Part shown: positions 3,480 through 55,333 of the stretch, in pieces
Layout of the letters: every line of letters begins with the position of its first letter
How positions within the stretch are numbered: the first letter of the stretch is position 1
The notes under the pieces: generated by a model
The model's input: the letters and a program-made list of their open reading frames with translations, nothing else
Told to the model about the DNA's origin: nothing
The model's database searches: none
Position numbers and translations under genes: made by a program
Source of the DNA: Pristiophorus japonicus
Lineage: Eukaryota
Assembly: GCF_044704955.1 (NCBI RefSeq)
Contig: NC_091980.1
Coordinates: 274,474,001-274,538,000 of the forward strand
DNA: 64,000 nt
Direction of reading: 5' to 3'

Positions 3480-6466
3480 AAAATAACACATTTTAATGCA
3501 AGACAATAAGTTTCTTCGTGAAACCCAAAGCAAAAATCAAAAAAGGCCACATTACAGCAAAAGTCTAAAAGGACAAAGAGTGTTAAAAAGACAAGCCTGA
3601 AGGCTCTGTGCCTCAATGCGAGGAGTATTCGGAATAAGGTGGATGAATTAACTGCGCAGGCAGCTATTAACTAATATAATATAATTGGGATTATGGAGAC
3701 ATGGCTCCAGGGTGACCAAGTCTGGGAACTCAACATCCAGGAATATTCAACATTCAGGAAGGATAGACAGAAAGTAAAAGGAGGTGGGGTAGCATTGTTG
3801 GTTAAAGAGGAAATTAACGCAATAGTAAGGAAGGACATTAGCTTGGATGATGTGGAATTTGTATGGGTAGAGCTGCGGAATACCAAAAGGCAGAAAACAC
3901 TAGTGGGAGTTGTGTACAGACCACCAAACAGTAGTAGTGAGGTTGGGGACAGCATCAAACAAGAAATTAGGGATGCGTGCAATAAAGGTACAGCAGTTAT
4001 CATGGGCGACTTTAATCTACATATAGATTGGGCTAACCAAACTGGCAGCAGGAGGAGGATTTCCTGGAGTGTATTAGGGATGGTTTTCTAGACCAATATG
4101 TCGAAGAACCAACTAGAGGGCTGGCCATCTTAGACTGGGTGATGTGTAACGAGAAAGGACTAATTAGCAATCTTGTTGTGCGAGACCCCTTGGGGAAGAG
4201 TGACGATAATATGGTAGAATTCTTTATTAAGATGGAGAGTGACACAGTTAATTCGGAAACCAGGGTCCTGAACTTAAGGAAAGGTAACTTCGATGGTATG
4301 AGACGTGAATTGGCTCGAATAGACAGGCAAATGATAATTAAAGGGTTGACGGTGGAAAGGCAATGGCAAACATTTAAAGATCACATGGATGAACTTCAAC
4401 AATTGTACATCCCTGTCTGGAGTAAAACTAAAATAGGGAAGATGGCTCAACCGTGGCTAACAAGGGAAATTAGAGATAGTGTTAAATCCAAGGAAGAGGC
4501 ATATAAATTGGCCAGAAAAAGCAGCAAATCTGAGGACTGGGAGAAATTTAGAATTCAGCAGAGGAGGACAAAGGGTTTAATTAGGAGGAGGAAAATAGAG
4601 TATGAGGGGAAGCTTGCTGGGAACATAAAAACTGACTGCAAAAGCTTCTAGATATGTGAAGAGAAAAAGATTAGTGAAGACAAAGGTAGGTCCCTTGCAG
4701 TCAGAATCAGGTGAATTTATAATGGGGACAAAGAAATGGCAGACCAATTGAACAAATATTTTGGTTCTGTCTTCACTAAGGAAGACACAAATAACCTTCG
4801 GGAAGTACTAGGGGACCGAGGGCCTAGTGAGAAGGAGGAACTGAAGGAAATCCTTATTAGTCAGGGAAATTGATGGGATTGAAGGCCAATAAATCCCCAG
4901 GGCCTGATAGTTTGCATCCCAGAGTACATAAGGAAGTGGCCCTAGAAATAGTGGATGTATTGGTGATCATTTTCCAACAGTCTATCGACTCTGGATCAGT
5001 TCCTATGGACAGGAGGGTAGCTAATGTAACACCACTTTTTAAAAAAGGAGGGAGAGAGAAAACAGGGAATTATAGACCAGTTAGCCTGACATCGGTGGTG
5101 GGGAAAATTTTGGAATAAATTATTAAAGATGAAATAGCAGCACATTTGGAAAGCAGTGACAGGATCGGTCCAAGTCAGCATGGATTTATGAAAGGGAAAT
5201 CATGCTTGACAATTCTTCTAGAATATTTTGAGGATATAACTAGTAGAGTGGACAAGCGAGAACTAGTGGATGTGGTGTATATGGACTTTCAAAAGGCTTT
5301 TGACAAGGTCCCACACAAGAGATTGGTGTGCAAAATTAAAGCACATGGTAATGGAGGTAATGTATTGACGTGGATACAGAACTGGTTGGCAGACAGGAAG
5401 CAGAGAGTCGGGATAAACGGGTCCTTTTCAGAATGGCAGGCAGTGACTAGTGGGGTGCCGCAGGGCTCAGTGCTGGGACCTCAGCTATTTACAATACACA
5501 TCAATGATTTAGATGAAGGAATTGAGTGTAATATCTCCAAGTTTGCAGATGACACTAAGCTGGGTGGCAGTGTGAGCTGTGAGGAGGATGCTAAGAGACT
5601 GCAGGGTGACTTGGACAGGTTAGGTGAGTGGGCAAATGCATGGCAGATGCAGTTTAATGTGGATAAATGTGAGGTTATCCACTTTGGTGGCAAAAACATG
5701 AAGGCAGAATATTATCTGAATGGCGGCAGATTAGGAAAAGGGGGGGGTGCAACGAGACCTGGGTGTCATGGTACATCAGTCATTGAAGGTTGGCATGCAG
5801 GTGCAGCAGGCAGTGAAGAAGACAAATGGTATGTTGGCCTTCATAGCTAGGGAATTTGAGTATCGGAGCAGGGAGGTCTTACTGCAGTTGTACAGGGCCT
5901 TGGTGAGGCCTCACCTGGAATATTGTGTTCAGTTTTGGTCTCCTAATCTGAGGAAGGACGTTCTTGCTATTGAGGGAGTGCAGCGAAGGTTCACCAGACT
6001 GATTCCTGGGATGGCTGGACTGACATATGAGGAGAGACTGGATCGACTGGGCCTGTATTCACTGGAGTTTAGAAGAATGAGAGGGGATCTCAAAGGAACA
6101 TAGAAAATTCTGACGGGACTGGACAGGTTAGATGCAGGAAGAATGTTCCCGATGTTGGGGGAGTCCAGAATCAGGGGTCACAGTCTAAGGATAAGGGGTA
6201 AGCCATTTAGGACTGAGATGAGGAGAAACTTCTTCACTCAGAGAGTTGTTAACCTGTGGAATTCTCTACCGCAGAGAGTTGTTGATGCCAGTTCATTAGA
6301 TACATTCAAGAGGGCGTTAGATATGGCCCTTATGGCTAAAGGGATCAAGGAGTATGGAGAGAAAGCAGGAAAGGGGTACTGAAGTGAATGATCAGCCATC
6401 TTATTGAATGGTGGTGCAGACTCGAAGGGCCGAATGGCCTACTTCTGCACCTATTTTCTATGTTTC
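3480..6466 (+). mobile_element. CR1 LINE, near-complete ORF2 (APE endonuclease + RT), disabled
   Basis: LCLNARSIRNK, GVVYRPP, MGDFN, DFQKAFDKVPH, KFADDTKL, RPHLEYCVQFWSP; tail ttttctatgtttc; several stops and frameshifts. Confidence 0.95.
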
Positions 6467-6683
6467 ATTGATGTGAATGTTCATGTACTGAATGATTCAG
6501 AAATACAACAGAACGATTAGAAAACTTAAACCTTGAAAATTATGCTTCACATGCCTCCCAACTTATGTTTAAAAGCATAGAAAGATTAAAAAGTTCTAAA
6601 ACCCTCTATCGCTGCGATTTGAATGTGACAATGGTACTGGTCCGTGTTTGGTGAAAGCCCTTTCAATTTGGTTTTCAATATCA

Positions 6684-6839
<156 letters not shown>

Positions 6840-6864
6840 TTAGCTTGTAAGTAGTACCCTTAGT

Positions 6865-7310
6865 AGGTTGTACCTCTCCAGTCCGGTACCCTGGGACCTG
6901 ACCAGTGCCAGACCAGAGAATTTTCCAAACCACGGGAGGTCAACTAGACAACGCTGCTGACAACGACCCATTCTGTGCATGCGCTGTGCAGAAGCCTACT
7001 GTGCAGCATTTAGTCGTCCAGAAGACGAGAGGAGAAGCGGCGGGGCGAGGTGAGAGAGCTGAGCCGCAAACCGCCAAGCCGAGCCTCCGACCGGGCCCTG
7101 AGCCTCCCACTGAGCCGCAGTGGGAAAGTGGTAGTAGTGGCGGCGGCAGCGGGCGGCAGGGGGAGAGAGAGACAGAGAGCCCGGAGCTAGGCCTAGCTTC
7201 GGCGCCTCAGACAGCCGCCTGCCCTTCCCTTTCCTTGCCCAGCCCACTTAGCTCAACAAACAGCGCAGGACACCACCCACATTGGGACTGATGGCGGACC
7301 AGGGATGTTT
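6865..7310. mobile_element. Probable Tigger/pogo-type MITE remnant with CpG-rich interior
   Basis: Left end aggttgtacctctccagtccgg resembles the CAGGT..CC..TCCGG ends of the MITE at 61045; right end not identified. Confidence 0.35.
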
Positions 7311-7949
7311 CCCACCTAAAGAGGTGCAATCTGTGATTATTTTTGAAACTGCTTCCACCAAGGTCCATGCACATATTTGGTCGTAAAGTTATTAGCAACA
7401 CACCTGACTTGGGTCAAAGTACAAAGATTTCAGATTTTGTGTGGTAGGCCTGTAACAGCCATCTAAAGACACATGCACAAAGCATAGCACATAGTCCGTG
7501 CAGTGTAAAAAAATGTAGAGGAAAAGATTAGGTTAAAAATGTAAACAAATAAATAATCCAAGTGTTTGATGATTTTTGACAACTATTACGTGATAGGGTT
7601 TAACATAGTTTTCTAAACTGTGCACATTATTTATTACTGCTTCTTTCTCCTGTGCAATTCAGTTCATTTTTCTCCTAAACTCTCATCTTGCTTTCTGCAT
7701 GTAAACTTTCAAAGGTGTCAAAAAATAAATGGGTATATACAGCAAGACTGGAAGGTTGTGGAGAAGAGGTGAAGTGGTCCGACTTGCACCACACATACTG
7801 TTTATTATTAAAAACACACTGTTTCACGGACAGCTTTGTCTAGGTTTCTTCTGAAGATTTTGACGATCTTATTATCTGGTGCTGTACATGGGTTTTCACA
7901 AGTAAATGTTACATACTGCTGCTAAGCCGACACTAGCAATGTTACTCAC

Positions 7950-8079
7950 ATTTCTCTCTTATGGTTAAAGTCAACTCCATACACAATCTCCTCTTCTCCA
8001 TCTTTCACAATCTTCCAAATTGTTCCTCCAATCATGTGACCTGCAGGCAAAGGAGTTATGGATAGACCATGTCCCTTAC
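7950..8079 (-). CDS. CPSF2: CPSF2 coding exon 4 (130 nt)
   Basis: ctAG|GT AAG GGA...GAA AT|GTGAGT; [43 protein letters not shown]. Confidence 0.97.
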
Positions 8080-9134
8080 CTAGATACAAGACAGAAAGGA
8101 AAAAGTTCAACAACCGAGTGCGAAAGATACCAGTTTTCATATTGGATTTTTAAATATTCACTGGACCAGCTCATGCACAAACCATTAGGCCTGAGGCTCA
8201 ACAGAAAATGAGCCTTGTTGTTATAATAGTGCTGAGCTGCTGGAGCCTGTCGTGCCTCCAGTGACAGCTTTCCCATTTACCGGGATGAATTTAGGACAGC
8301 TGTCTAGGCGGTGGCGGCCTTCAGGTAAGTGCTGGGGCGGGGGGTTGGGGGGAGGGGAACAGAGAACAGGAAGGGTGCTGAGCAAAGCCCCCCCATTAGC
8401 TGCACTGCCTCCTGCACAGTCCATTCAAATGTTTGTGTCTGTGTGATATCTACAATGTAAAAGCCGGTGAGGGGATGCGCAGGACCTCTCAGACCACGGT
8501 GCAATCGCGCGCGCGCTTTAACAGGAACTCTGGTGCTGAGCATGGGCTGGCAGCATCCCGCAGTAGTACTGTAGAACCAGGAGAACACCTACTCCTCCTG
8601 GCTCCACTTCAATGTAAGTATATTAAAAACTTTAAAAGTTTTGGTGCTGTCTCCTTAAATCTACTGGATACATCACACGTACTCTGTGCTGACAGATTTG
8701 CTGGAGGAGTCTTGAACCAGGCATTATGCCCATCATTTACATATGTGGGCACTACGGATGTCTGGAAAGCCACCTCCACTAGTACAGCTGTGTCCATACT
8801 CCTGACACAAATCAGAAGTGCACAAATCAGGGGCGGAACATTGTGCCCTGAAATCATTCCTTGTTGTCCCCATTTTGTGCCCAGGCGGAACAAGGACAAC
8901 TTTCCCTGCCTATTAAGTTTTATTAACTAATCCGAAATCCTGTTTAGATAATATTTTCAATTATATTCTATCTTTTTGGAGATGGAAGAAGGACAAGAGC
9001 GAGGGTTTTTAAGTGTTCTGCACAATTCCCCAGCCAAGAGCTAAGCCAGCCCCGGGTATATGATAATACTGCAACAATAGGTGTGGTGCAAGAGTAGACT
9101 GAATAGGCTCAACCGACTTTACCTCCCTCCCTCA

Positions 9135-23452: not shown

Positions 23453-23754
23453 GTGAGTGTGTGAGTGGAGTGAGTGAGACCTGGGCTCCAGGCAGGGCCG
23501 GCCAGCCGGCGGTGCCCTTGTCCCTGTCCTCCCGTATTGCCGAGAGCCGGTGAACCCGTTTGTCCTTGTTGCTTGTCTCCTGCGGCCTAACCAATGCAGC
23601 CTCGAAAGGTCGTGTGAGGGCCATTGCTTCCAGTGCACGCTGGGGTCCTTGGATTTGGGTAAAGAGGACACCAACAGTTATGAAAATGTGCACAGACGAC
23701 ACAAAAAATGAGTATGGTTAGCTGTGAGGAAGAATGCTAGTGACTTCAGGACGA

Positions 23755-24800
23755 TAGACTTGCATTTATATAGCGCCTTTCACGACCACCGAACGTCCAA
23801 ACCACTTTACAGCCAGTGAAGTGCTTTTTTTTTAAAGTGCAGTCACAATTGTAATCATCATCATCATAGATAGTCCCTCGGAATCGAGGAAGACTTGCTT
23901 CCACTCCCAACGTGAGTTCCCTGGTGGCCGAACAGTCCAAAACGAGAGCCACAGACTCTGTCACAGTTGGGACAGACATTCGTCGAGAAAGGGGTGGGTG
24001 GGTCTGGTTTGCCGCGCGCTCCTTCCGCTGTCTGCGCCTGACCTCTTCACGCTCTTTGCGTTGAGACTCGAAGAACTCAACGCCCTCAGGGATGCACTTT
24101 CTCCACCTCAGCCGGTCTTCGGCCAGGGTCTCCCAGGTGTCAGTGGTGATGTCGCACTTTACCAGGGAGGCTTTGAGAGTGTCTTTGTAACGCTTCCGCT
24201 GCCCACCTTTGACTCATTTACCATGAAGGAGCTCCACATAAAGCATTTGCTTAGGGAGTCTCGTATCTGGCATGCGAACTATGTGGCCTGCCCAGTGAAA
24301 CTGATCGAGTGTGGTCAGTGCTTCAATACTGGGGATGTTAGCCTGGACGAGGACACTGATGTTGGTGCGCCTGTCCTCCCAGGGCATTTGCAGGATCTTG
24401 CGGAGGCGTCGTTGGTGATATATCTCCAGCGACTTGAGGTGTAATGTAGAAAACGCGGCAGCCAATTTGCGCACAGCAAGCTTCCACAGACAGAAATGTG
24501 ATAATGACCCGATAATCTGTTTTTAGCGATGTTGATTGAGGGATAAATATTGGCCATGACACTGGGGGAAACCGCCCTGCTCTTCTTTGAAATAATGCCA
24601 TAGGTTCTTTTATGTCCACCTAAGAGAGCAGACATGACTCAGTTTAACGTCTCATCCAAAAGACAGCACCTCTGACAGTGCAGCACTCCCTCAGTACCGC
24701 ACTGGGACTGTCCGCCTAGATTTTTGTGCTCAAATCTCGAGTGGAACTTGAACCCACGAGGTACTAACTCAGAGATGAGAGTGCTACCAACTCAGCCATG
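23755..24800 (-). mobile_element. Deu-domain SINE split by an RTE insertion
   Basis: Tail 23755-23853; body and head 24440-24800; tgtaat duplicated around the insert. Confidence 0.8.
23855..24439 (-). mobile_element. RTE-clade LINE 3' end
   Basis: LEIYHQRRLRKILQMPWEDRRTN, WAGHIVRMPDTRLPKQ; terminal CPNCDR..H..TH finger; (atg)n tail. Confidence 0.88.
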
Positions 24801-25367
24801 GTAATGTCAAGATTAGGCAGAAACATGTTGGATGAACTTTAATGTGGAGAAATATGAACTGGTACATTTTGGGAGCAACAGTAAAAAAGAAATATACAAC
24901 AAATGGTTACATTTTGAAAGTCGAGGACCAGAAAGAGAGAGGGAGGGTCACGTACATCAATCTTTAAAAACGAGTGGTCAAAATTGATACTGCTGTTTTT
25001 AAGGGAAAAAGCATAAGGGATTCAATGTTGTATAAATAGATATAACTGTTTACATCCCTCCAGTGTGAAAAATATCCATCAACCATTGTTTTCTGTTTAT
25101 ATGTGGAAATAGAGGTTGTGCCCTCCACGCAAACAAATTAACCCAATCAACATTTACCTGTCCGAATCCCATACTCCTTCATCCCCTTTTCCTTGATTCA
25201 CCTATCCAATCTAATCTAATCTTGAATGATGAATAGTTTCTGTCTCAACCACTAACTCTGGAAGTAAATTCAACAGCTTCCTAACTCTTTGTAAAGAGTT
25301 TTTGCCCTCATCTTGTCCTGACCAATATTTATCCCAACATTACTAAAAACACATTATCTGGCCATTA

Positions 25368-25468
25368 CAAAAACAAGATACTGTGGATGCTGTAAATACT
25401 CAAAGCTCAGGCAGCATCTATGGAGAGAGAAACAGGGTTAACGTTTCAGGTCGATGACCTTTCATCAG
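25368..25468 (-). mobile_element. Penelope-type terminal fragment with hammerhead core, inserted in a Deu-SINE 3' half (25315-25595)
   Basis: Minus strand CTGATGA A AGGTC atc GACCT GAAAC GTT AAC; same repeat at 46707 and 55166. Confidence 0.65.
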
Positions 25469-25713
25469 TTCTCATTGCTGTTTATGAGACCTTGCTTACA
25501 ATACAACGATGACAATACTTCAGCACTTCATTGGCTGTAAAATACTTTGGAGTGTTCTGAGGTCATGAAAGGCGCTATACAAATGCAAGTTCTTTAAATC
25601 TCCTGCATTTAATCTTGTATTATGACTCCTTGTTCTAGACCTGAAATAGTCTGCATCTATCATTTTACAAAAGGAGTTGGTTTGATGGGCCAAGTAGACC
25701 TTTTTTCTACCAA

Positions 25714-27006
25714 AATGGCCGGGCACTGTGGACACTCTGCGTCTCTGGGAGTCGTTAGGTTGGTAGCGAGGCGCTGGCTGAATAGGGCTTTGAGTGCACC
25801 AGCGTTGATCTTCCTGCAGCATTGTTTCTGTTCTCACCGCTGTTTTGGGACAATGTTGATTGTGATGACAAAGCGAATTAGGCGGTGGTCCGTCCAATAG
25901 TCGTCAACTCCTGTCATGGTGCGGGTGATGCGCACGTCTTTGCAATCCCTCGCTCGCATGATAACGTAGTCTAGCAGATGCCAGTGCTTGGAGCGAGGGT
26001 GTTGCCATGAATCTTTATATTTGTCCTTCTGATGGAACAGGGTATTAGTTATGACGAGGCTGTGTTCTAAGCATTTCGTCAGGAGGAGGGTACCATTGTA
26101 ATTGGTTTTCCCTAACCCCTCTCTGCTGATCATACCTCCCCACAGGTCAGTGTCCTTTCCGACTCTCGTTGAAGTCACCAAGGAAGATCAGCTTGTCGCC
26201 CGTTGGGACTCGAGACAGGGATTGTTCGAGGCTGGAGTAGAATTCCTCTTTGGTCTTGTCTGTAGCTTCCAGTGTTGGGGCGTATGCGCTAAAGACCATA
26301 GCGCACTGGTTCTGGGCTAGGGTGAGCCGAAGAGTCATGAGGCGTTCGTTTATCCCGCAGGGGGAATCTCTGAGTCAGCCCACTAGTTTGTTTTTTACGA
26401 CGAAGTCAATCTCATAGAGGTGGCGTTCTGCTTCTGGTTTGCCTTTCCAGAAGAAGGTGCAGCCACCACCTTGTTCTTTGAGCTGGCCTTCCCCTGCCCG
26501 CCGGGTCTCGCTTCGGGCAGCTATGTCAATGTTGAAGCGCCCGAGTTCCCGGACAACGATGGCGGTGCGACGTTCCGGTCTGTTGCTGTAAGGGTTGTCC
26601 ATAAGGGTCCTGATGTTCCAGGTCCCAAACTTTATCTTAAAGTGTGGAAGACGCCTGTGCATGAGTTCTTTTAACGTGGGGTGGCCATTGCACACCAGCT
26701 ACCACATGGGTTTGACTAAGCAAGGTCTTGGTCCAGTGGCAAAGGGATACAAGACGACTGGAGACCAGGCTGTGCTGTATGGGCCTTGTTCATACACACG
26801 CATACTTCGACTGTCCTCCTTCCCCCGGGCCTCTATCCCTGGGTTTCGGAGGACACAATGGTGGTCTCACAAACTCGCTGCTGGCCCATGCTGCATTACT
26901 CCTGGGCCACGACCCCGCTGCTGGTTTGTGCTGCGCCGCTCCTGGGCCATGACCCTGCTGCTGTCCTCCGACCTCCGGGCTCCCGTTTCCTCCACCCTCC
27001 GGGCTC
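25714..27006 (-). mobile_element. RTE LINE 5' UTR plus APE endonuclease, 3'-truncated
   Basis: KFGTWNIRTL, SETRRAGEGQL, SAYAPT, LGDFN, HWHLLDYV, WTDHRL. Confidence 0.88.
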
Positions 27007-27591
27007 GTCTGCATCTATCATATTTTGCAAAAGGAGTTGATTTGATCAGCCAAGTAGACATTTTTTTCTACCAATGCTTATATTCTGAATGGCAGAGGCC
27101 AAGAGGCTCACAGCTCCTCTACCCCAGAAAATATTGCAGGATGAAGAGAAAGCTAACAAGAGGGAGAAACACATATTTCAATTGTTTGAAAAAGTTTTCT
27201 CGTTTCTGATTCTTTCATTACTTCATCAATGCCTTGTGGATCATATGGATTCTGAATACCTCCAATTTTTCCTATTTTGTCCCTAATAGTAGCAGATTTG
27301 AGCTATGATGGGCTGAATGCCCTTTTAGCTTTGACTTTTATGATACAGCTTTACTTTGTAAATGGCTTTTATTTCCTGTTTCAGTTTTGAAAGTCAACTT
27401 TTATATTCGAACCAATGCTCCTCCTAAGACACAGCAAATTTAAAAGATCGCGTGCACAAAAAATTGAGGGAACATTGATTAGAACATACCATTAGCTATT
27501 GTAACTGGCCAAATATTTAGCGCTATAGTTAAGCTATCGTGGTGAAAACATTTTACTGTTCGAGACACTAATCATAGCAGAAAATGAGCCA

Positions 27592-28364
27592 CAGACTATT
27601 ATCTGAACGGTGACAGATTAGGAAAAGGGGAGGTGCAACGAGACCTGGGTGTCATAGTACATCAGTCATTGAAGGTTGGCATGCAGGTACAGCAGGCGGT
27701 TAAGAAAGCAAATGGCATGTTGGCCTTTATAGTGAGGGGATTTGAGTACAGGGGTAGGGAGGTGTTACTACTACAGTTGTACAGGGCCTTGGTGAGGCCA
27801 CATCTGGAGTATTGTGTGCAGTTTTGGTCTCCTAACTTGAGGAAGGACATTCTTGCTATTGAGGGAGTGCAGCGAAGATTCACTAGACTGATTCCCGGGA
27901 TGGCGGGACTGACATATCAAGAAAGACTGGATCAACTGGGCTTGTATTTACTGGGGTTCAGAAGAATGAGAGGGGATCTCATAGAAACGTTTAAAATTCT
28001 GGCAGGTTTAGACAGGTTAGAAGCAGGAAGAATGTTCCCAATGTTGGGGAAGTCCAGAACCAGGGGTCACAGTCTAAGGATAAGGAGTAAGCCATTTAGG
28101 ACTGAGATGAGGAGAAACTTCTTCACCCAGAGAGTGGTGAACCTGTGGAATTCTCTACCACAGAAAGTTGTTGAGGCCAATTCACTAAATATATTCAAAA
28201 AGGAATTAGATGTAGTCCTTACTACTAGGCTGATCAAGGGGTTTGGCGAGAAAGCAGGAATGGGGTACTGATAAAGTTGCATGTTCAGCCATGAACTCAT
28301 TGAATGGCGGTGCAGGCTCGAAGGGCCGAATGGCCTACTCCTGCACCTATTTTCTATGTTTCTA
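27592..28364 (+). mobile_element. CR1 3' fragment (young subfamily)
   Basis: Open 212-aa ORF2 C-terminus; tail ttttctatgtttctat. Confidence 0.92.
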
Positions 28365-29208
28365 TAAGTTACTTTGTATTGTATTGACCATCTAATGTGT
28401 GACCAGTTGTCCAGATAATTCAAATATAAGCTAAAGTACATGTTTATATTATTTGTAATGTTGCCAGCAGTGTCAGTCTAGCCAATTTAAATACATTTAG
28501 CTGCCAAATGCCAAGAGCCAACGTTCCCGAAGATTGATGTTTGAGTTCACAATGTAGCAAGAGGCATGCAGTATCCATTAAAAATGTTCAGATGAGAAGA
28601 CCAAGTTCTTCTAAAATTCCTTCTTCCACCAAAAGACAGATTAATTGGTCATTCATCTCACTGCTGTATGTGGGTTCTCTCTATGCAGAAAATGGCTTCC
28701 ATGGTTACCTACATAAGTCACTGCACTTCAAAGTAATTAACTTGTATTTGAAGCACTTTTGAAACATTTCTGGCAGAAATGAGAGAGGTATGTAAATGTT
28801 TTTTAAAATGCTGTACTGATGAACTACAAACTGCAAACAGTAAAGAAAAAAAATCCTGTTCTAGTGATGTAGTTTACATGAATGCATTTTCTCACTTCAA
28901 GTTGTCATCCTTGTTCACTTTCCACACTAATTCTGAATGAAGTGAATGAATAACACCTTCATGCAGGTTCTTGTAACTCATAAAACATGGGGACAGTGAG
29001 AGCTCTTTTGTCATCTGTTTTCTTGGAGTACATATCATAGATATAACTTTTAGACCAATTTATCAGGATCTCTATTACAGCCAAAGTAAATGGGTAGCCA
29101 CGCCTATGCTGTATTTCTATGTAGGTAGAAATACATCACCTTTTCATCAGGAATTTGTTTTGTGCACTTCAGTCATTTTTTTTGTTTTACTTTCCTCCTC
29201 TCAGCATA

Positions 29209-30284: not shown

Positions 30285-31755
30285 TCTCTGTAATATTGCC
30301 CGACTCTGCCCATGCCTCAGCTCATCTGCTGCTGAAACCTTCACCCATGCCTTTGCTACCTTTATTCCGACGCACTCTTAGCCGCCCTCCAATTTTCTAC
30401 TTACCGTCAACTAGAGGTGATCCAAAACTCTGCTGCCTATGTTTAAACTCGCACCAAGTCCCGTTCACTCATCACTCCTGCGCTCGCTGACCTACATTGG
30501 CTCACGGTTAAGCAACGCCTTGATTTTAAAATTCTCATCCTTGTTTTCTAATCCCTCTATGGCCTTGCTCCGTCCTATCTCTGTAATCTTCTCCAGCCCT
30601 ACAACCCTCCCAGATATCTGCACTCTTCTAATTCTGACCTTGCGTATCCCTGATTTTAATCGCTTCACCATTGGTGGTCGTGCCTTCAGCTGCCAAGGCC
30701 CTAAACTCTGGAATTCTCTCCCTCAACATCTCCACCTCTCTACCTCTCTTTCCTCCTTTAAGACGCTCCTTAAATCATACCTCTTTGACCATGCTTTTGG
30801 TCAGCTGACCCAATATCTCCTTATGTGGCTCGGTGTCAAATTTTTGTTTGATAACAACATCAACTTATATTTACATAGCGCCTTTATCGTAGTAGAACGT
30901 ACGAAGGTGCTTCACAGGAGTATAATAAGACAAAAATGTTGACACCGAGCCACATAAGCAGAAATTGGGCAGGTCAAAGAGGTAGGTTTTAAGGAGCGTT
31001 TTAAAGGAGGAAAGAGAAGCGAAGAGGGTTAGGCAGGGAATTCCAGAGCTTGGGGCCTAGGCAACAGAAGGCATGGCCACCAATGGTTGAGCAATTATAA
31101 TCAGAGATGCTCAAGGGAGCGGAATTAGAGGAGCGCAGATATCTCTTTGGGGGGGGTTACAGAGATAGGGAGTGGCGAGGTCATGGAGGGATTTGAAAAC
31201 AAAGATGAGAATTTTGAAATCGAGGCATTGCTTAACTGGGAGCCAGGAAACCAATATAGGTCGTCAAGCACAGGGGTGATAGGTGAGTGGGGCGGTGCGA
31301 GTTAGGGCACGGGCAGCTGAGTTTTGGATGACCTCAAATTTACATAGGGTAGAATGGGAGGCCGGCCTGTAGTGCATTGGAATAGTCAAGTCTAGAGATA
31401 ACAAATACATGGATGAGGGTTTTAGCAACGGATGAGCTGAGCAAGAGTCCAGACGGGCGATGTTACTGAGGTGGAAATAGGTGGTCTTAGTTATGCCGCG
31501 GATATGTGGTCGGAAGCTCATTTCAGGGTCAAATATGACACCAAGGTTGCGAACAGTATGGTTCAGCCTCAGACAGATGTTAGGGAGAGGGACAGAGTTT
31601 GTGGCAGGGACTGAAAACAAGGCTTCGATCTTCCCAATATTTAATTGGAGAAAATTTCAGCTCATCCAGACGGTCCTGTGAAGTCACATTCCTGTCAAAT
31701 ACCTTGGGACGTTTTACTATGTTAAAGGCACTATATGAATGCAAATTCTTCTTCA
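30285..31755. mobile_element. Plus-strand L2 3' part with a minus-strand L2 (~30853-31669) nested in its tail
   Basis: Plus copy stops at gataac; its remaining tail (cctgtgaag..cttgggacgttttactatgttaaaggc) resumes at ~31675. Confidence 0.8.
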
Positions 31756-46370: not shown

Positions 46371-46706
46371 GGGTTGCTCAGTCTGGACAGACGTGCATGG
46401 AGTCCATGATACCAGAAGATCCTAAGCCAAAGATCCTGGGAGCCTATGGATAATGTCCGCTCAGATGTGTCACCATTTTGAGCTGCCAGGACTATCAGAG
46501 GGCAGCTTGTTACAGAGGTGTTCAGCACCGGATTGCCTCCTCCTACAGAACACAGCTTGCCCACTTTCTCCCTCGCTCTCAGACAAAAAGGACTATTTGA
46601 AAGCAATGCCACACAAGCACAACAATGCATTAGCCCTCTTATCCCCCACAGCACTATGTCAACTTTCATCAGTTGAGTGAACACTGACCCATTTGTGTGG
46701 ACCATT

Positions 46707-46793
46707 GTGACGAAGGGTCTCAGACCTGAAACGTTAACTGTTTCTCACCACAGATGCTGCCTGGTCTGTTGAATGTTTCCAGCATTTTCTGTT
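46707..46793 (+). mobile_element. Penelope-type fragment with hammerhead-like core
   Basis: gTGACGA A GGGTC tca GACCT GAAACGTTAAC; 15-bp TSD tttgtgtggaccatt. Confidence 0.65.
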
Positions 46794-46914
46794 TTTGTGT
46801 GGACCATTCCCTGTGTGACTGATTTCAATGATTAATGAACCAGAGAATTAAAGTGAGAATTCAACTTTAATACAACAATGAAGAGAACACAAACAGGCAT
46901 ATCCAAGTACTTTT

Positions 46915-52397: not shown

Positions 52398-54180
52398 TAG
52401 GAACAGGAGTAAGCCATTCAACCCCTTGAGCCTGTTCCGCCATCCAATTAAATCATTGCTAATCTGTGACTTAACTTACCCACCTTGGTTCAATAATCCT
52501 TAACACCCTTGTCTAACACAAATCTATCACTCATTTTTTTCTTTCAGGTACTTAACCAACTCCCTTTCGAAAGATTGAGTCTGCCTCCACCACCCTTTCA
52601 GGCACTGCATTCCAGATCCTAACCACTCGCTGGGTAAAAAAACATTTTCTTATGTCGCCTTTGGTTCTTTTGCCAATCACTTTAAATCTGTGTACCCTGG
52701 TTCGTGACCCTTCTGTCAATTTGAACTGTTTCTCTCTATCAATTCTGTCCACTCATGATTTTGAACACCTCTATCAAATCTCCTTTTGATCTTCTCTGCT
52801 CTAAGGAGAATAACCCCAGCTTCTCCAGTCTATGCACGTAACTGAAGTCCCTCATCCTGGAATCATTCTCGTAATAGTACCAGGGATGAGGGACTTCAGT
52901 TATGTGGAGAGACTAAAGAGAACTGGTGTTGTTCTCCTTGGAGCAGAAAAGGTTCAGAGGTGCTCAAAATCATGAACAGTTTTGATGGAGTAAATGAGAA
53001 GAATCAGTAACCAGAGTACACAGATTTAAAGTGATTGGTGAGCAAAACATCCGGAGGCGACTTGAGAAAACTTTATTTTTTTACAAGCAAATCGATGTGA
53101 TCTGGAATGCACTGCCTGAAAGGGTGGTGGAAGCATATTCAATAGTAGCATTCAAAAGAGAATTGAATAAATAATTGAAGGGAAAAAAATTGCTGGACTA
53201 TGGGGAAAGGGCAGGGGAGTGGCACTAATTGGAAAACGTTACAAAGAGGCACGATGGGCCGAATGGCCTCCTGTGCTGCATTATTCTATGATTCTGCACC
53301 CTTTTTTAGGCCTTCACATCCTTTCTAAAGTGCGGTGCCCAGAATTGGACACAATACTCCAGTTGAGGCCGAACCAGTGTTTTATACAGGTTCATTATCA
53401 TTTCCACACTTTTGTACTCTGCACCTCTATTCATGAAGCCCAGGATCCCATGAGCTTTTTTTAACCGCTTTCTCAACCTGACCTGCCACCTTGTGCACAT
53501 ATACCCTTTGGTCTCTCTGTTCATGCACCCCCTTTAGGATTGTAATCTTTAGTTTATATTTTCTTTCCTCATTCTTTCTACCAAAATGTATCACTTCACA
53601 CTTTTCTGTGTTAAATTTCATCTGCCACATGTGCGCCCATTCCACCAGCTTGACTATGTCATCTTGAAATCTATCACTATCCTCCTCACTGTTCATTATA
53701 CTTCCAAGTTTTGTGTCATCTGCAAATTTTGAAATTGTGCCCTGTACACCCATATCCAAGTCATTAAAATATATCTAGAAAAGCAGTAGTCCCGGGGAAC
53801 ACCACTGTATAACTTACTCCAGTCCGAAAAACAACTGTTCACCACTTCTCTCTATTTCCTGTCACTAAGCCAATTTTGTATCCATGCTGCCACTGTCCCT
53901 TTTATTCCATGGGTTTCAACTTTGCTGGCAAGCCTATTATATGGCATTTTGTCGAACGCCTTTTGGAAATCCATGTACACGTCAACCACATTTCCCTCAC
54001 CAAAAAATCCGATCAAGTTGGTTAAACTCAATTTGCCTCTAACAAATCCGTGCTGGCTTTCCTTAATTAATCCACACTTGTCCAAGTGACTGTTAATTTT
54101 ATCCCTGATTATTGTTTCTAAAAACTTCCCTACTACTGAGGTTAAATTGACTGGTCTATAGTTGTTGGGTTTATCTTTAA
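52398..54180 (-). mobile_element. CR1 cluster, with a plus-strand CR1 3' end at ~52875-53292
   Basis: QHGFVRGK, DFQKAFDK, KFADDTKL, RPQLEYCVQFW. Confidence 0.8.
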
Positions 54181-55140: not shown

Positions 55141-55165
55141 CATCTCAGCCCAACCGCTAAAGGGA

Positions 55166-55333
55166 AACAAAACCAGAAAAATGCTGGCAATACTCAGCGG
55201 GTCAGGCAGCATCTGTGGAGAGAGAAACAGTTAACGTTTCAGGTCGATGAGCTTTTGTCAGAAGTGGAAATAGTTACAGATGTAACAGGTTTTATTTCAG
55301 GTTTCCAGCACCCGCAGTATTTTTGTGTTTTTT
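55166..55333. mobile_element. Penelope-type fragment with partly inverted ends and a degenerate hammerhead core (-)
   Basis: Matches 25368 and 46707; right end is similar to the reverse complement of 25369-25397. Confidence 0.6.

What the first reader, a model, noticed from the sequence alone, without database searches (positions are those of the whole stretch)
25437..25468. Minimal type-I hammerhead ribozyme core in a short dispersed repeat
Seen (minus strand): CUGAUGA-A-[AGGUC auc GACCU]-GAAAC-GUU-AAC. Both catalytic boxes are intact, helix II is a perfect 5 bp, and helix III is a loop-less palindrome (AACGUU). Known: Penelope-like elements and animal retrozymes carry minimal hammerheads with palindromic helix III that cleave as dimers. 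In this copy the 5' strand of helix I is truncated, so it is probably inactive alone. Three copies in 64 kb suggest a very abundant ribozyme-bearing family.
Basis: partly seen in the sequence, partly recalled or inferred. Interest (0 to 1): 0.7.

Follow-up and report, generated by a model that had tools for sequence, protein, structure and literature searches.

The report
Dead Penelope-end minimal hammerhead copy
This is a 100-base broken-off end of a very common Penelope-type jumping gene that carries an already described miniature self-cutting RNA motif; this copy has lost one arm of the motif and is predicted to be inactive, so it is ordinary, although short copies pile up at the motif's front edge rather than at its cut site, which suggests they were likely copied from uncut RNA.

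Summary
The motif is real and not chance: both catalytic boxes, a 5-bp helix II and a palindromic ACGU. It is the 3' end (pseudo-LTR hammerhead plus 'tail') of a Penelope-like retrotransposon with RT, a Cys-linker and a GIY-YIG endonuclease: 27 of 30 endonuclease-picked loci carry it downstream. About 40,000-60,000 copies genome-wide. This copy starts at C3, lacks helix I, has A-U instead of G-C at 10.1/11.1, has no partner nearby and sits inside another repeat: predicted dead. The other two window copies have broken cores. The family has a 4-bp helix I. The core is not better conserved than the downstream tail; one helix II pair covaries. 5' ends pile up at the ribozyme's front edge (15 of 77; about 6,200 genome-wide) and not at the cut site (2 of 77; about 480), so copies likely come from uncut RNA that may start at helix I. 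Known kind (Cervera & de la Pena 2014). The scan found this family before on other DNA, in this genome and others. Cleavage and the RNA start are untested.

The parts
25368..25468 (-). 5'-truncated 3' end of a Penelope-like retrotransposon (hammerhead core plus tail, about 101 nt; about 30 nt deleted between two short direct repeats of the tail)
   Evidence: Profile of 24 endonuclease-linked copies matches 25468-25376 at E 8e-23; tail end read by eye against aligned copies
25462..25468 (-). Catalytic box C3-A9 (CUGAUGA), intact; the copy begins here
25448..25460 (-). Helix II, 5 bp with 3-nt loop, preceded by a bulged A (25461); closing pair A-U, where 46 of 97 copies have G-C, 28 G-U, 13 A-U
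   Evidence: pair probability about 0.85
25440..25447 (-). G12-A13-A14, palindromic ACGU (predicted intermolecular helix III) and U17; predicted cut between 25440 and 25439
   Evidence: architecture as in PMC4209133; cut site inferred
25436..25439 (-). 3' strand of helix I (AACC here, AACU in most copies); its 5' partner is missing in this copy
25314..25367 (+). Left part of the host repeat into which the element end inserted (no target-site duplication seen)
   Evidence: 36 hits in window and loci; contiguous with the right part in L054
25470..25595 (+). Right part of the host repeat (resembles a Deu-domain SINE; name recalled, not from a call)
   Evidence: 69 hits in window and loci
46704..46798 (+). 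Second copy: solo hammerhead + short tail, C3 replaced by G, flanked by an 11-15 nt target-site duplication
55144..55294 (-). Third copy: 3' part of the pseudo-LTR, hammerhead with G8 to A and a helix II mismatch
55295..55324 (+). Short inverted tail piece at the 5' junction of the third copy (PLE-type inverted 5' partner); weak by score
   Evidence: (E 0.61), read by eye

Best explanation
The motif is the minimal type-I hammerhead at the 3' end of an abundant Penelope-like retrotransposon (RT, Cys-rich linker, GIY-YIG endonuclease), and this copy, which starts at C3 and lacks helix I, is predicted to be an inactive insertion relic. Shown: family structure [pseudo-LTR with hammerhead and tail]-ORF-[pseudo-LTR], two 3' ends about 35 nt apart, inverted 5' partners, variable target-site duplications, tens of thousands of copies. 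Inferred from published PLE work: in the intact element two hammerheads would pair through ACGU to form a double hammerhead and cut after GUU, slowly and probably only with protein help; a monomer is predicted to fold into an off state in which U4-G8 pairs with the cleavage-site strand. Inferred here: the element's RT starts in the tail about 70 or 105 nt after the cut site and copies uncut RNA; it most often stops at the front edge of the ribozyme, most likely because the RNA begins there, which produces 100-140-nt solo ends like this one.
For: Upstream of long copies lie a GIY-YIG domain (PF01541, E 8.5e-5, above cut-off) and an RT region (PF00078, E 8.7e-6, below cut-off; YIDD and DKG seen). 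27 of 30 endonuclease-picked loci carry the motif downstream. 19 of 30 loci picked by the ORF's 5' part carry the same pseudo-LTR end just upstream, running on into the ORF. 3' ends of 77 unique tail-picked copies cluster near +68 and +105, the PLE 'tail' (PMC11167929; PMC8557442). 14 of 77 have an inverted 5' partner. Counts: 5,911 exact core-pattern and 15,739 exact tail-pattern matches, 0 in reversed controls; three estimates give 37,000, 57,000 and 59,000. Helix I and II pair in 93% of cells; 10.1/11.1 runs G-C 39, G-U 27, A-U 11, other 3. Monomer MFE of intact copies is the off fold; a double-hammerhead fold scores -14.9 (L155) and -10.9 (L014) against -4.5 kcal/mol for this copy. 5' ends: 15 of 77 at -35..-23, 2 of 77 at the cut site (Poisson P 4e-7, window chosen after seeing the data); flanks of the short copies score at null level against true upstream sequence. 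Genome-wide boundary counts 359 (-32/-31) against 43 (+1), 25 (-1), 65 (+4); normalised about 6,200, 480, 300, 690. In PAc the hammerhead is not needed for insertion and no reads end at its cut site (PMC11167929).
Against: No cleavage was measured. Within the family the core is no better conserved than the tail (96.7% against 95.8%, P 0.41, 47 copies); only 1 of 10 pairs changes on both sides, which is probably one or two events, and G-C to G-U fits CpG decay. The double-hammerhead fold is far less stable than other predicted dimers (-14.9 against -31.3 for L155). No single locus with both pseudo-LTRs and an open ORF was shown. The RNA start is not observed; the excess of G before the junction is modest (20 of 41 and 21 of 46, P about 0.02 each, hand-tallied) and only 1 of 9 copies with a duplication shows extra G's outside it. 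Clade assignment rests on motifs, not a tree.
Confidence: 0.88

Rival explanations
1. The short copies are a separate non-autonomous family (a SINE-like mini-element or a non-LTR retrozyme) with its own master copies, moved by the PLE enzymes.
For: 51 of 176 unique core-bearing copies have no pseudo-LTR upstream; several have 9-15 nt target-site duplications; non-LTR retrozymes are reported to derive from PLE pseudo-LTRs (bioRxiv 10.64898/2026.07.22.740005).
Against: Short copies share no private 5' sequence and their starts spread over -35 to +10; they show the same helix II variants as long copies; 0 of 77 have a direct neighbour within 700 nt, while retrozymes are defined as tandem arrays.
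Confidence: 0.08
2. The ribozyme cuts the element RNA in vivo and the cut makes the 5' end of the copied template.
For: Proposed in PMC4209133. 43 genome-wide boundaries at +1 exceed the 25 at -1; about 8 of 30 inspected are inverted junctions at +1 without obvious helix I microhomology (by eye).
Against: +4 has more boundaries (65). Of 30 inspected +1 loci, 17 score as inverted junctions, about 11 are internal indels or partial inversions and 2 are clean truncations. 2 of 77 sampled copies start within 3 nt of the cut, at background rate. A footprint of up to about 1% of copies is not excluded.
Confidence: 0.1
3. The pile-up of 5' ends at the ribozyme's front edge comes from a 3' splice site or an RT stop/template switch there, not from a transcription start.
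For: The site reads as pyrimidines + CAG before helix I; in D. virilis Penelope the intron ends at the 5' end of helix I (PMC4209133; intron 46 bp after the start, PMC2377424); 18 of 51 short copies have an inverted partner, so switching occurs there.
Against: Where a duplication is seen it abuts the element at -34 to -28 with no shared exon piece; none of the split alignments among 77 copies ends at -31.
Confidence: 0.3
4. The motif is a chance look-alike or a fully neutral remnant with no ribozyme function even in the master elements.
For: No Rfam hit; core not better conserved than tail; little covariation.
Against: All defining positions are the majority state, while N7 and loop 2 vary (75.5% against 96.7%); position in the pseudo-LTR and architecture match published, weakly active PLE hammerheads.
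Confidence: 0.05

Closest known systems
Minimal hammerheads (min-HHR) in pseudo-LTRs of metazoan PLEs, Cervera & de la Pena 2014 (PMC4209133; parts 1-2 of 4 read; supplements searched, one file not searchable)
   Same: Type I, no loop 3, palindromic 15.2/16.2, bulged base between A9 and 10.1, short helix I, mostly solo dispersed copies, some inverted pairs, predicted dimer.
   Different: Helix II 5 bp; cut triplet GUU; this copy has A-U at 10.1/11.1 where the paper finds G-C highly conserved; about 40,000-60,000 copies against 4,000-9,000 listed for coelacanth and Xenopus; no shark entry found in the two searchable supplements.
PAc, Poseidon element of Anolis, Frangieh et al. 2024 (PMC11167929; parts 1-2 of 4 read)
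   Same: Hammerhead followed by two RT start sites that make the optional tail; uncut RNA is the template; no reads at the cut site.
   Different: PAc lacks the Cys linker (Poseidon clade) and its ORF starts in stem II; here the long ORF appears to begin about 200 nt or more after the tail, behind a pyrimidine-rich stretch, and its start codon was not found.
Neptune/Nematis-type EN+ PLEs, Craig et al. 2021 (PMC8557442; passages) and Arkhipova et al. 2013 (PMC3846280; passages)
   Same: C-terminal GIY-YIG with CCHH, CX2-5CxxC linker, DKG motif, 5' truncation, partial tandems, inverted 5' copies, tail, variable or absent duplications.
   Different: No tree was built, so Neptune against Nematis rests on motif and host type; a strong 5'-end peak at the ribozyme edge was not seen in the passages read.
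Non-LTR retrozymes of animals (bioRxiv 10.64898/2026.07.22.740005; part 1 of 5 and passages)
   Same: Type I hammerhead, PLE origin, reported in one cartilaginous fish.
   Different: Those are tandem arrays of 51-972 bp units; these copies are dispersed and tied to the PLE ORF.

Membership tests
Minimal type-I hammerhead (min-HHR), family level | CUGANGA and GAAA boxes with UH triplet | tested here: met
   Majority state at every core position in 97 copies picked without regard to the core; 43 of 97 keep all
Minimal type-I hammerhead (min-HHR), family level | Helix II with bulged base after A9, G10.1-C11.1 | tested here: met
   5 bp, 93% of cells paired; G-C 39, G-U 27, A-U 11 of 81 rows
Minimal type-I hammerhead (min-HHR), family level | Helix I of 4-5 bp | tested here: met
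   4 bp, 93% of cells paired, no compensatory change; low probability in monomer folds
Minimal type-I hammerhead (min-HHR), family level | Palindromic 15.2/16.2, no loop 3 | tested here: met
   C-G in 51 of 97, CpG-type decay in 33
Minimal type-I hammerhead (min-HHR), family level | Self-cleavage as a dimer | not testable with these tools
   Needs an in vitro assay
Minimal type-I hammerhead (min-HHR), family level | Core better conserved than flanks | tested here: inconclusive
   96.7% core, 80.9% upstream, 95.8% tail, 75.5% N7 + loop 2 in 47 copies
Complete hammerhead, this copy (25468-25436) | Helix I present | tested here: not met
   1 of 4 pairs possible
Complete hammerhead, this copy (25468-25436) | Second same-strand motif nearby for a dimer | tested here: not met
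   Next same-strand copy 30 kb away with a broken core
EN+ Penelope-like element | RT followed by C-terminal GIY-YIG endonuclease with CCHH in one ORF | tested here: met
   501-aa frame in L094 spans RT core to endonuclease; Pfam (RT below cut-off)
EN+ Penelope-like element | Pseudo-LTR with hammerhead on both sides of the ORF | tested here: met
   27 of 30 downstream and 19 of 30 upstream, in different loci; both ends in one locus not shown
EN+ Penelope-like element | Optional 30-40 bp tail; inverted 5' partner | tested here: met
   3' ends near +68 and +105; 14 of 77 inverted
Neptune/Nematis clades | CX2-5CxxC linker between RT and EN | tested here: met
   C-x4-C-x2-C in L029, L092, L094 and others
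Neptune/Nematis clades | RT phylogeny groups with Neptune | not tested
   No named reference PLE proteins were available; PDB search gave nothing
Non-LTR retrozyme | Head-to-tail tandem array, each unit with a hammerhead | tested here: not met
   0 of 77 within 700 nt; isolated close pairs in L021 and L235
Non-LTR retrozyme | Circular RNA accumulation | not testable with these tools
   No raw-read RNA run was offered

The most novel reading that the evidence does not exclude
The element's RNA starts, capped, at the first base of helix I (an initiator-like site, motif recalled), so the hammerhead is the very 5' end of the transcript. Held off by a built-in mispairing of its own core until the element's protein or a second RNA refolds it, it would cut away the first 32 capped bases and act as a decapping or off switch rather than as the tool that frees unit-length RNA. 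The thousands of mini-copies are run-off products of RT started 100-140 nt from that cap, and so map both the RNA start and the RT starts of a vertebrate PLE.
Probability: 0.3. Interest if true: 0.5.

Novelty: new member of a known kind. Interest (0 to 1): 0.22.

Why it matters
The copy itself matters little. The family matters modestly: what PLE hammerheads do is still open (PMC8557442; PMC11167929), and tens of thousands of copy ends give a natural read-out. They show that insertion here uses uncut RNA and point to a defined RNA end at the ribozyme's first base, which makes one role (cap removal or shut-off) directly testable by 5'-end and cyclic-phosphate sequencing. It also shows that Rfam misses this very abundant motif class.

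Tried and rejected
Rfam scan: no hammerhead. Box-only pattern: not above chance. Search for other minimal-hammerhead families with a free helix II: 3,517 matches against 448 control, and nearly all of the 100 listed were this family, so no cross-family covariation was obtained. Sequencing runs: no RNA holder listed; two guessed-RNA contig sets with share 0.05. Laid on a 5' pseudo-LTR/ORF stretch and a 3' stretch, they gave no listed joint at the putative acceptor and cannot show starts or levels; no conclusion drawn. Cleavage footprint at +1: not found above neighbours. Cap-derived G outside duplications: 1 of 9, inconclusive. PDB: no relative. Lunse et al. 2017 (dimer cleavage of PLE hammerheads) is not held; seen only as a title and through a review (PMC6765202 passages). 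Literature searches for a shark PLE hammerhead or a capped start listed no such paper; most subscription papers and repeat databases were not searchable, and supplementary figures of PMC4209133 and the bioRxiv supplements that I could not see may list shark motifs. Rows dropped: 13 of 90 tail-picked loci as duplicates; 6 of 30 endonuclease loci left out of the profile; 11 of 97 gapped rows left out of alignment A1; 1 of 98 duplicate row.

Full report
Observation. The minus strand at 25468-25437 reads as described. A structural descriptor finds only this site in the window and 2 of 300 Markov controls have any hit; the two boxes alone are not above chance. Rfam reports no hammerhead. Two more copies lie at 46704-46798(+) and 55294-55144(-); both have broken cores, so 1 of 3 window copies keeps the catalytic boxes. 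The 5' strand of helix I is absent here: the copy begins at C3 and only 1 of 4 pairs could form.

What it belongs to. A search of the 5.9-Gb genome returned many 89-94% identical copies. Long copies continue upstream through about 400 nt of non-coding sequence into a GIY-YIG endonuclease with two cysteines between its motifs and a C-x4-C-x2-C linker and further into an RT with YIDD and DKG motifs. Of 30 loci picked by the endonuclease alone, 27 carry the hammerhead and tail downstream (the 27 include the query locus and one duplicated pair). Of 30 loci picked by the ORF's 5' part, 19 carry the same pseudo-LTR end just upstream, with the tail running on into the ORF. This is the pseudo-LTR/ORF/pseudo-LTR layout of EN+ Penelope-like elements, with the linker of the Neptune/Nematis type (PMC8557442; PMC3846280). 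No intact full-length copy was shown; copies are about 10-15% apart. The repeat landscape resembles a cartilaginous fish (recalled; earlier notes of the scan say the same; not tested here).

Abundance. Exact patterns give 5,911 (core) and 15,739 (tail) matches with 0 in reversed controls. Scaling by the share of independently picked copies that match (11 of 26; 8 of 77) gives 37,000 and 57,000; 2 copies in 200 kb of evenly spaced stretches give 59,000 with a wide interval of 7,000-214,000. The window is about five times denser than that average.

Ribozyme anatomy in the family. In 97 copies picked without regard to the core, every core position is the majority state; 43 keep the whole core, 66 helix II, 69 helix I, 51 the C-G palindrome, and 16 keep everything. 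Helix I (4 bp) and helix II (5 bp) are paired in 93% of cells; only pair 10.1/11.1 changes on both sides (G-C 39, G-U 27, A-U 11, other 3 of 81 rows), with 6 of 500 shuffles reaching the covariation score, which relatedness alone can give. The core (96.7%) is better conserved than the upstream flank (80.9%) and than N7 plus loop 2 (75.5%), but not than the tail (95.8%, P 0.41; 47 copies). Structure therefore fits the published minimal hammerhead (PMC4209133), while selection on catalysis is not shown. Folding predicts that intact monomers pair U4-G8 with the cleavage-site strand (frequency 0.75 for L155), an off state; N7 is C or U in 89 of 97 copies, both able to pair there. This would fit the low activity and protein dependence reported for PLE hammerheads, but it is a prediction. 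The double-hammerhead fold is possible for intact copies (-14.9 and -10.9 kcal/mol), is not the most stable dimer, and is nearly lost for this copy (-4.5).

This copy. It spans 25368-25468, has an internal deletion in the tail, and splits another repeat whose two halves are contiguous elsewhere, without a visible target-site duplication. It lies between LINE fragments. It has no same-strand intact partner in the window. It is predicted to be inactive.

How the copies arise. In 77 unique copies picked by the tail alone, 3' ends cluster near +68 and +105 from the cut site and 14 have an inverted 5' partner, as published for PLEs. 5' ends pile up at -35 to -23, the front edge of the ribozyme: 15 of 77, 0.020 per base against 0.003-0.005 elsewhere; 2 of 77 lie within 3 nt of the cut. 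The flanks of the short copies are unrelated to true upstream sequence. Genome-wide boundary patterns agree: 359 at -32/-31 against 43 at +1, 25 at -1 and 65 at +4, about 6,200, 480, 300 and 690 after rough normalisation. Of 30 inspected +1 loci only 2 are clean truncations and 17 score as inverted junctions. So self-cleavage did not make the usual 5' end, and the template was mostly uncut, as for the Anolis element in vitro. The simplest cause of the peak is that the RNA starts there and RT, primed in the tail, runs off. Support is indirect: duplications abut the element at -34 to -28 and G is modestly in excess before the junction (hand tally of the 100 rows), but extra G's outside a duplication were seen in 1 of 9. 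A splice acceptor at the same place, as in D. virilis Penelope, or an RT stop are live rivals. RNA data could not decide.

Comparison and verdict. It works like, and at family level meets the testable features of, the minimal PLE hammerheads of Cervera and de la Pena 2014; it is not a tandem retrozyme. This single copy fails membership as a complete hammerhead. The scan has noted this family before on other DNA, in this genome and in others, including the front-edge start; those notes are unchecked and were not counted as support. One note's cleavage footprint, reported for another genome, was tested here and not found above neighbouring positions. New member of a known kind; interest 0.22.

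Noticed in passing
L229, L226, L231, L234 and other 5' pseudo-LTR loci, about 150-220 nt after the tail: The long ORF seems to begin right after a long pyrimidine tract ending in AG, with no clear start codon; a second intron between the hammerhead region and the ORF is possible.
   Followed up: partly
window 25314-25595; also L006, L013, L048: Several PLE ends sit in or beside the same short host repeat, one (L006) about 17 nt from the site used here; may be chance given its abundance.
   Followed up: partly
rows; L279, L285, L289, L298, L299, L310, L319: Many inverted junctions fall on the 4 complementary bases of helix I, which suggests template switching through helix I.
   Followed up: partly
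window 30804-30979 and 52833-52908: Two long hairpins hit by miRNA models below their cut-offs; probably inverted-repeat transposons.
   Followed up: no
window 23746-24444, 25834-26187, 27588-28477: Fragments of RTE-like and CR1-like LINEs flank the finding (family names recalled).
   Followed up: no
G000 C1 0.6-3.3 Mb (L104-L120): 13 of the first 17 tail matches are duplicates of four loci with their flanks: a segmental or tandem duplication.
   Followed up: no
L235:792-1136 and L021: Rare close direct pairs of hammerheads (about 300 and 640 nt apart), the natural candidates for a cis dimer test.
   Followed up: no
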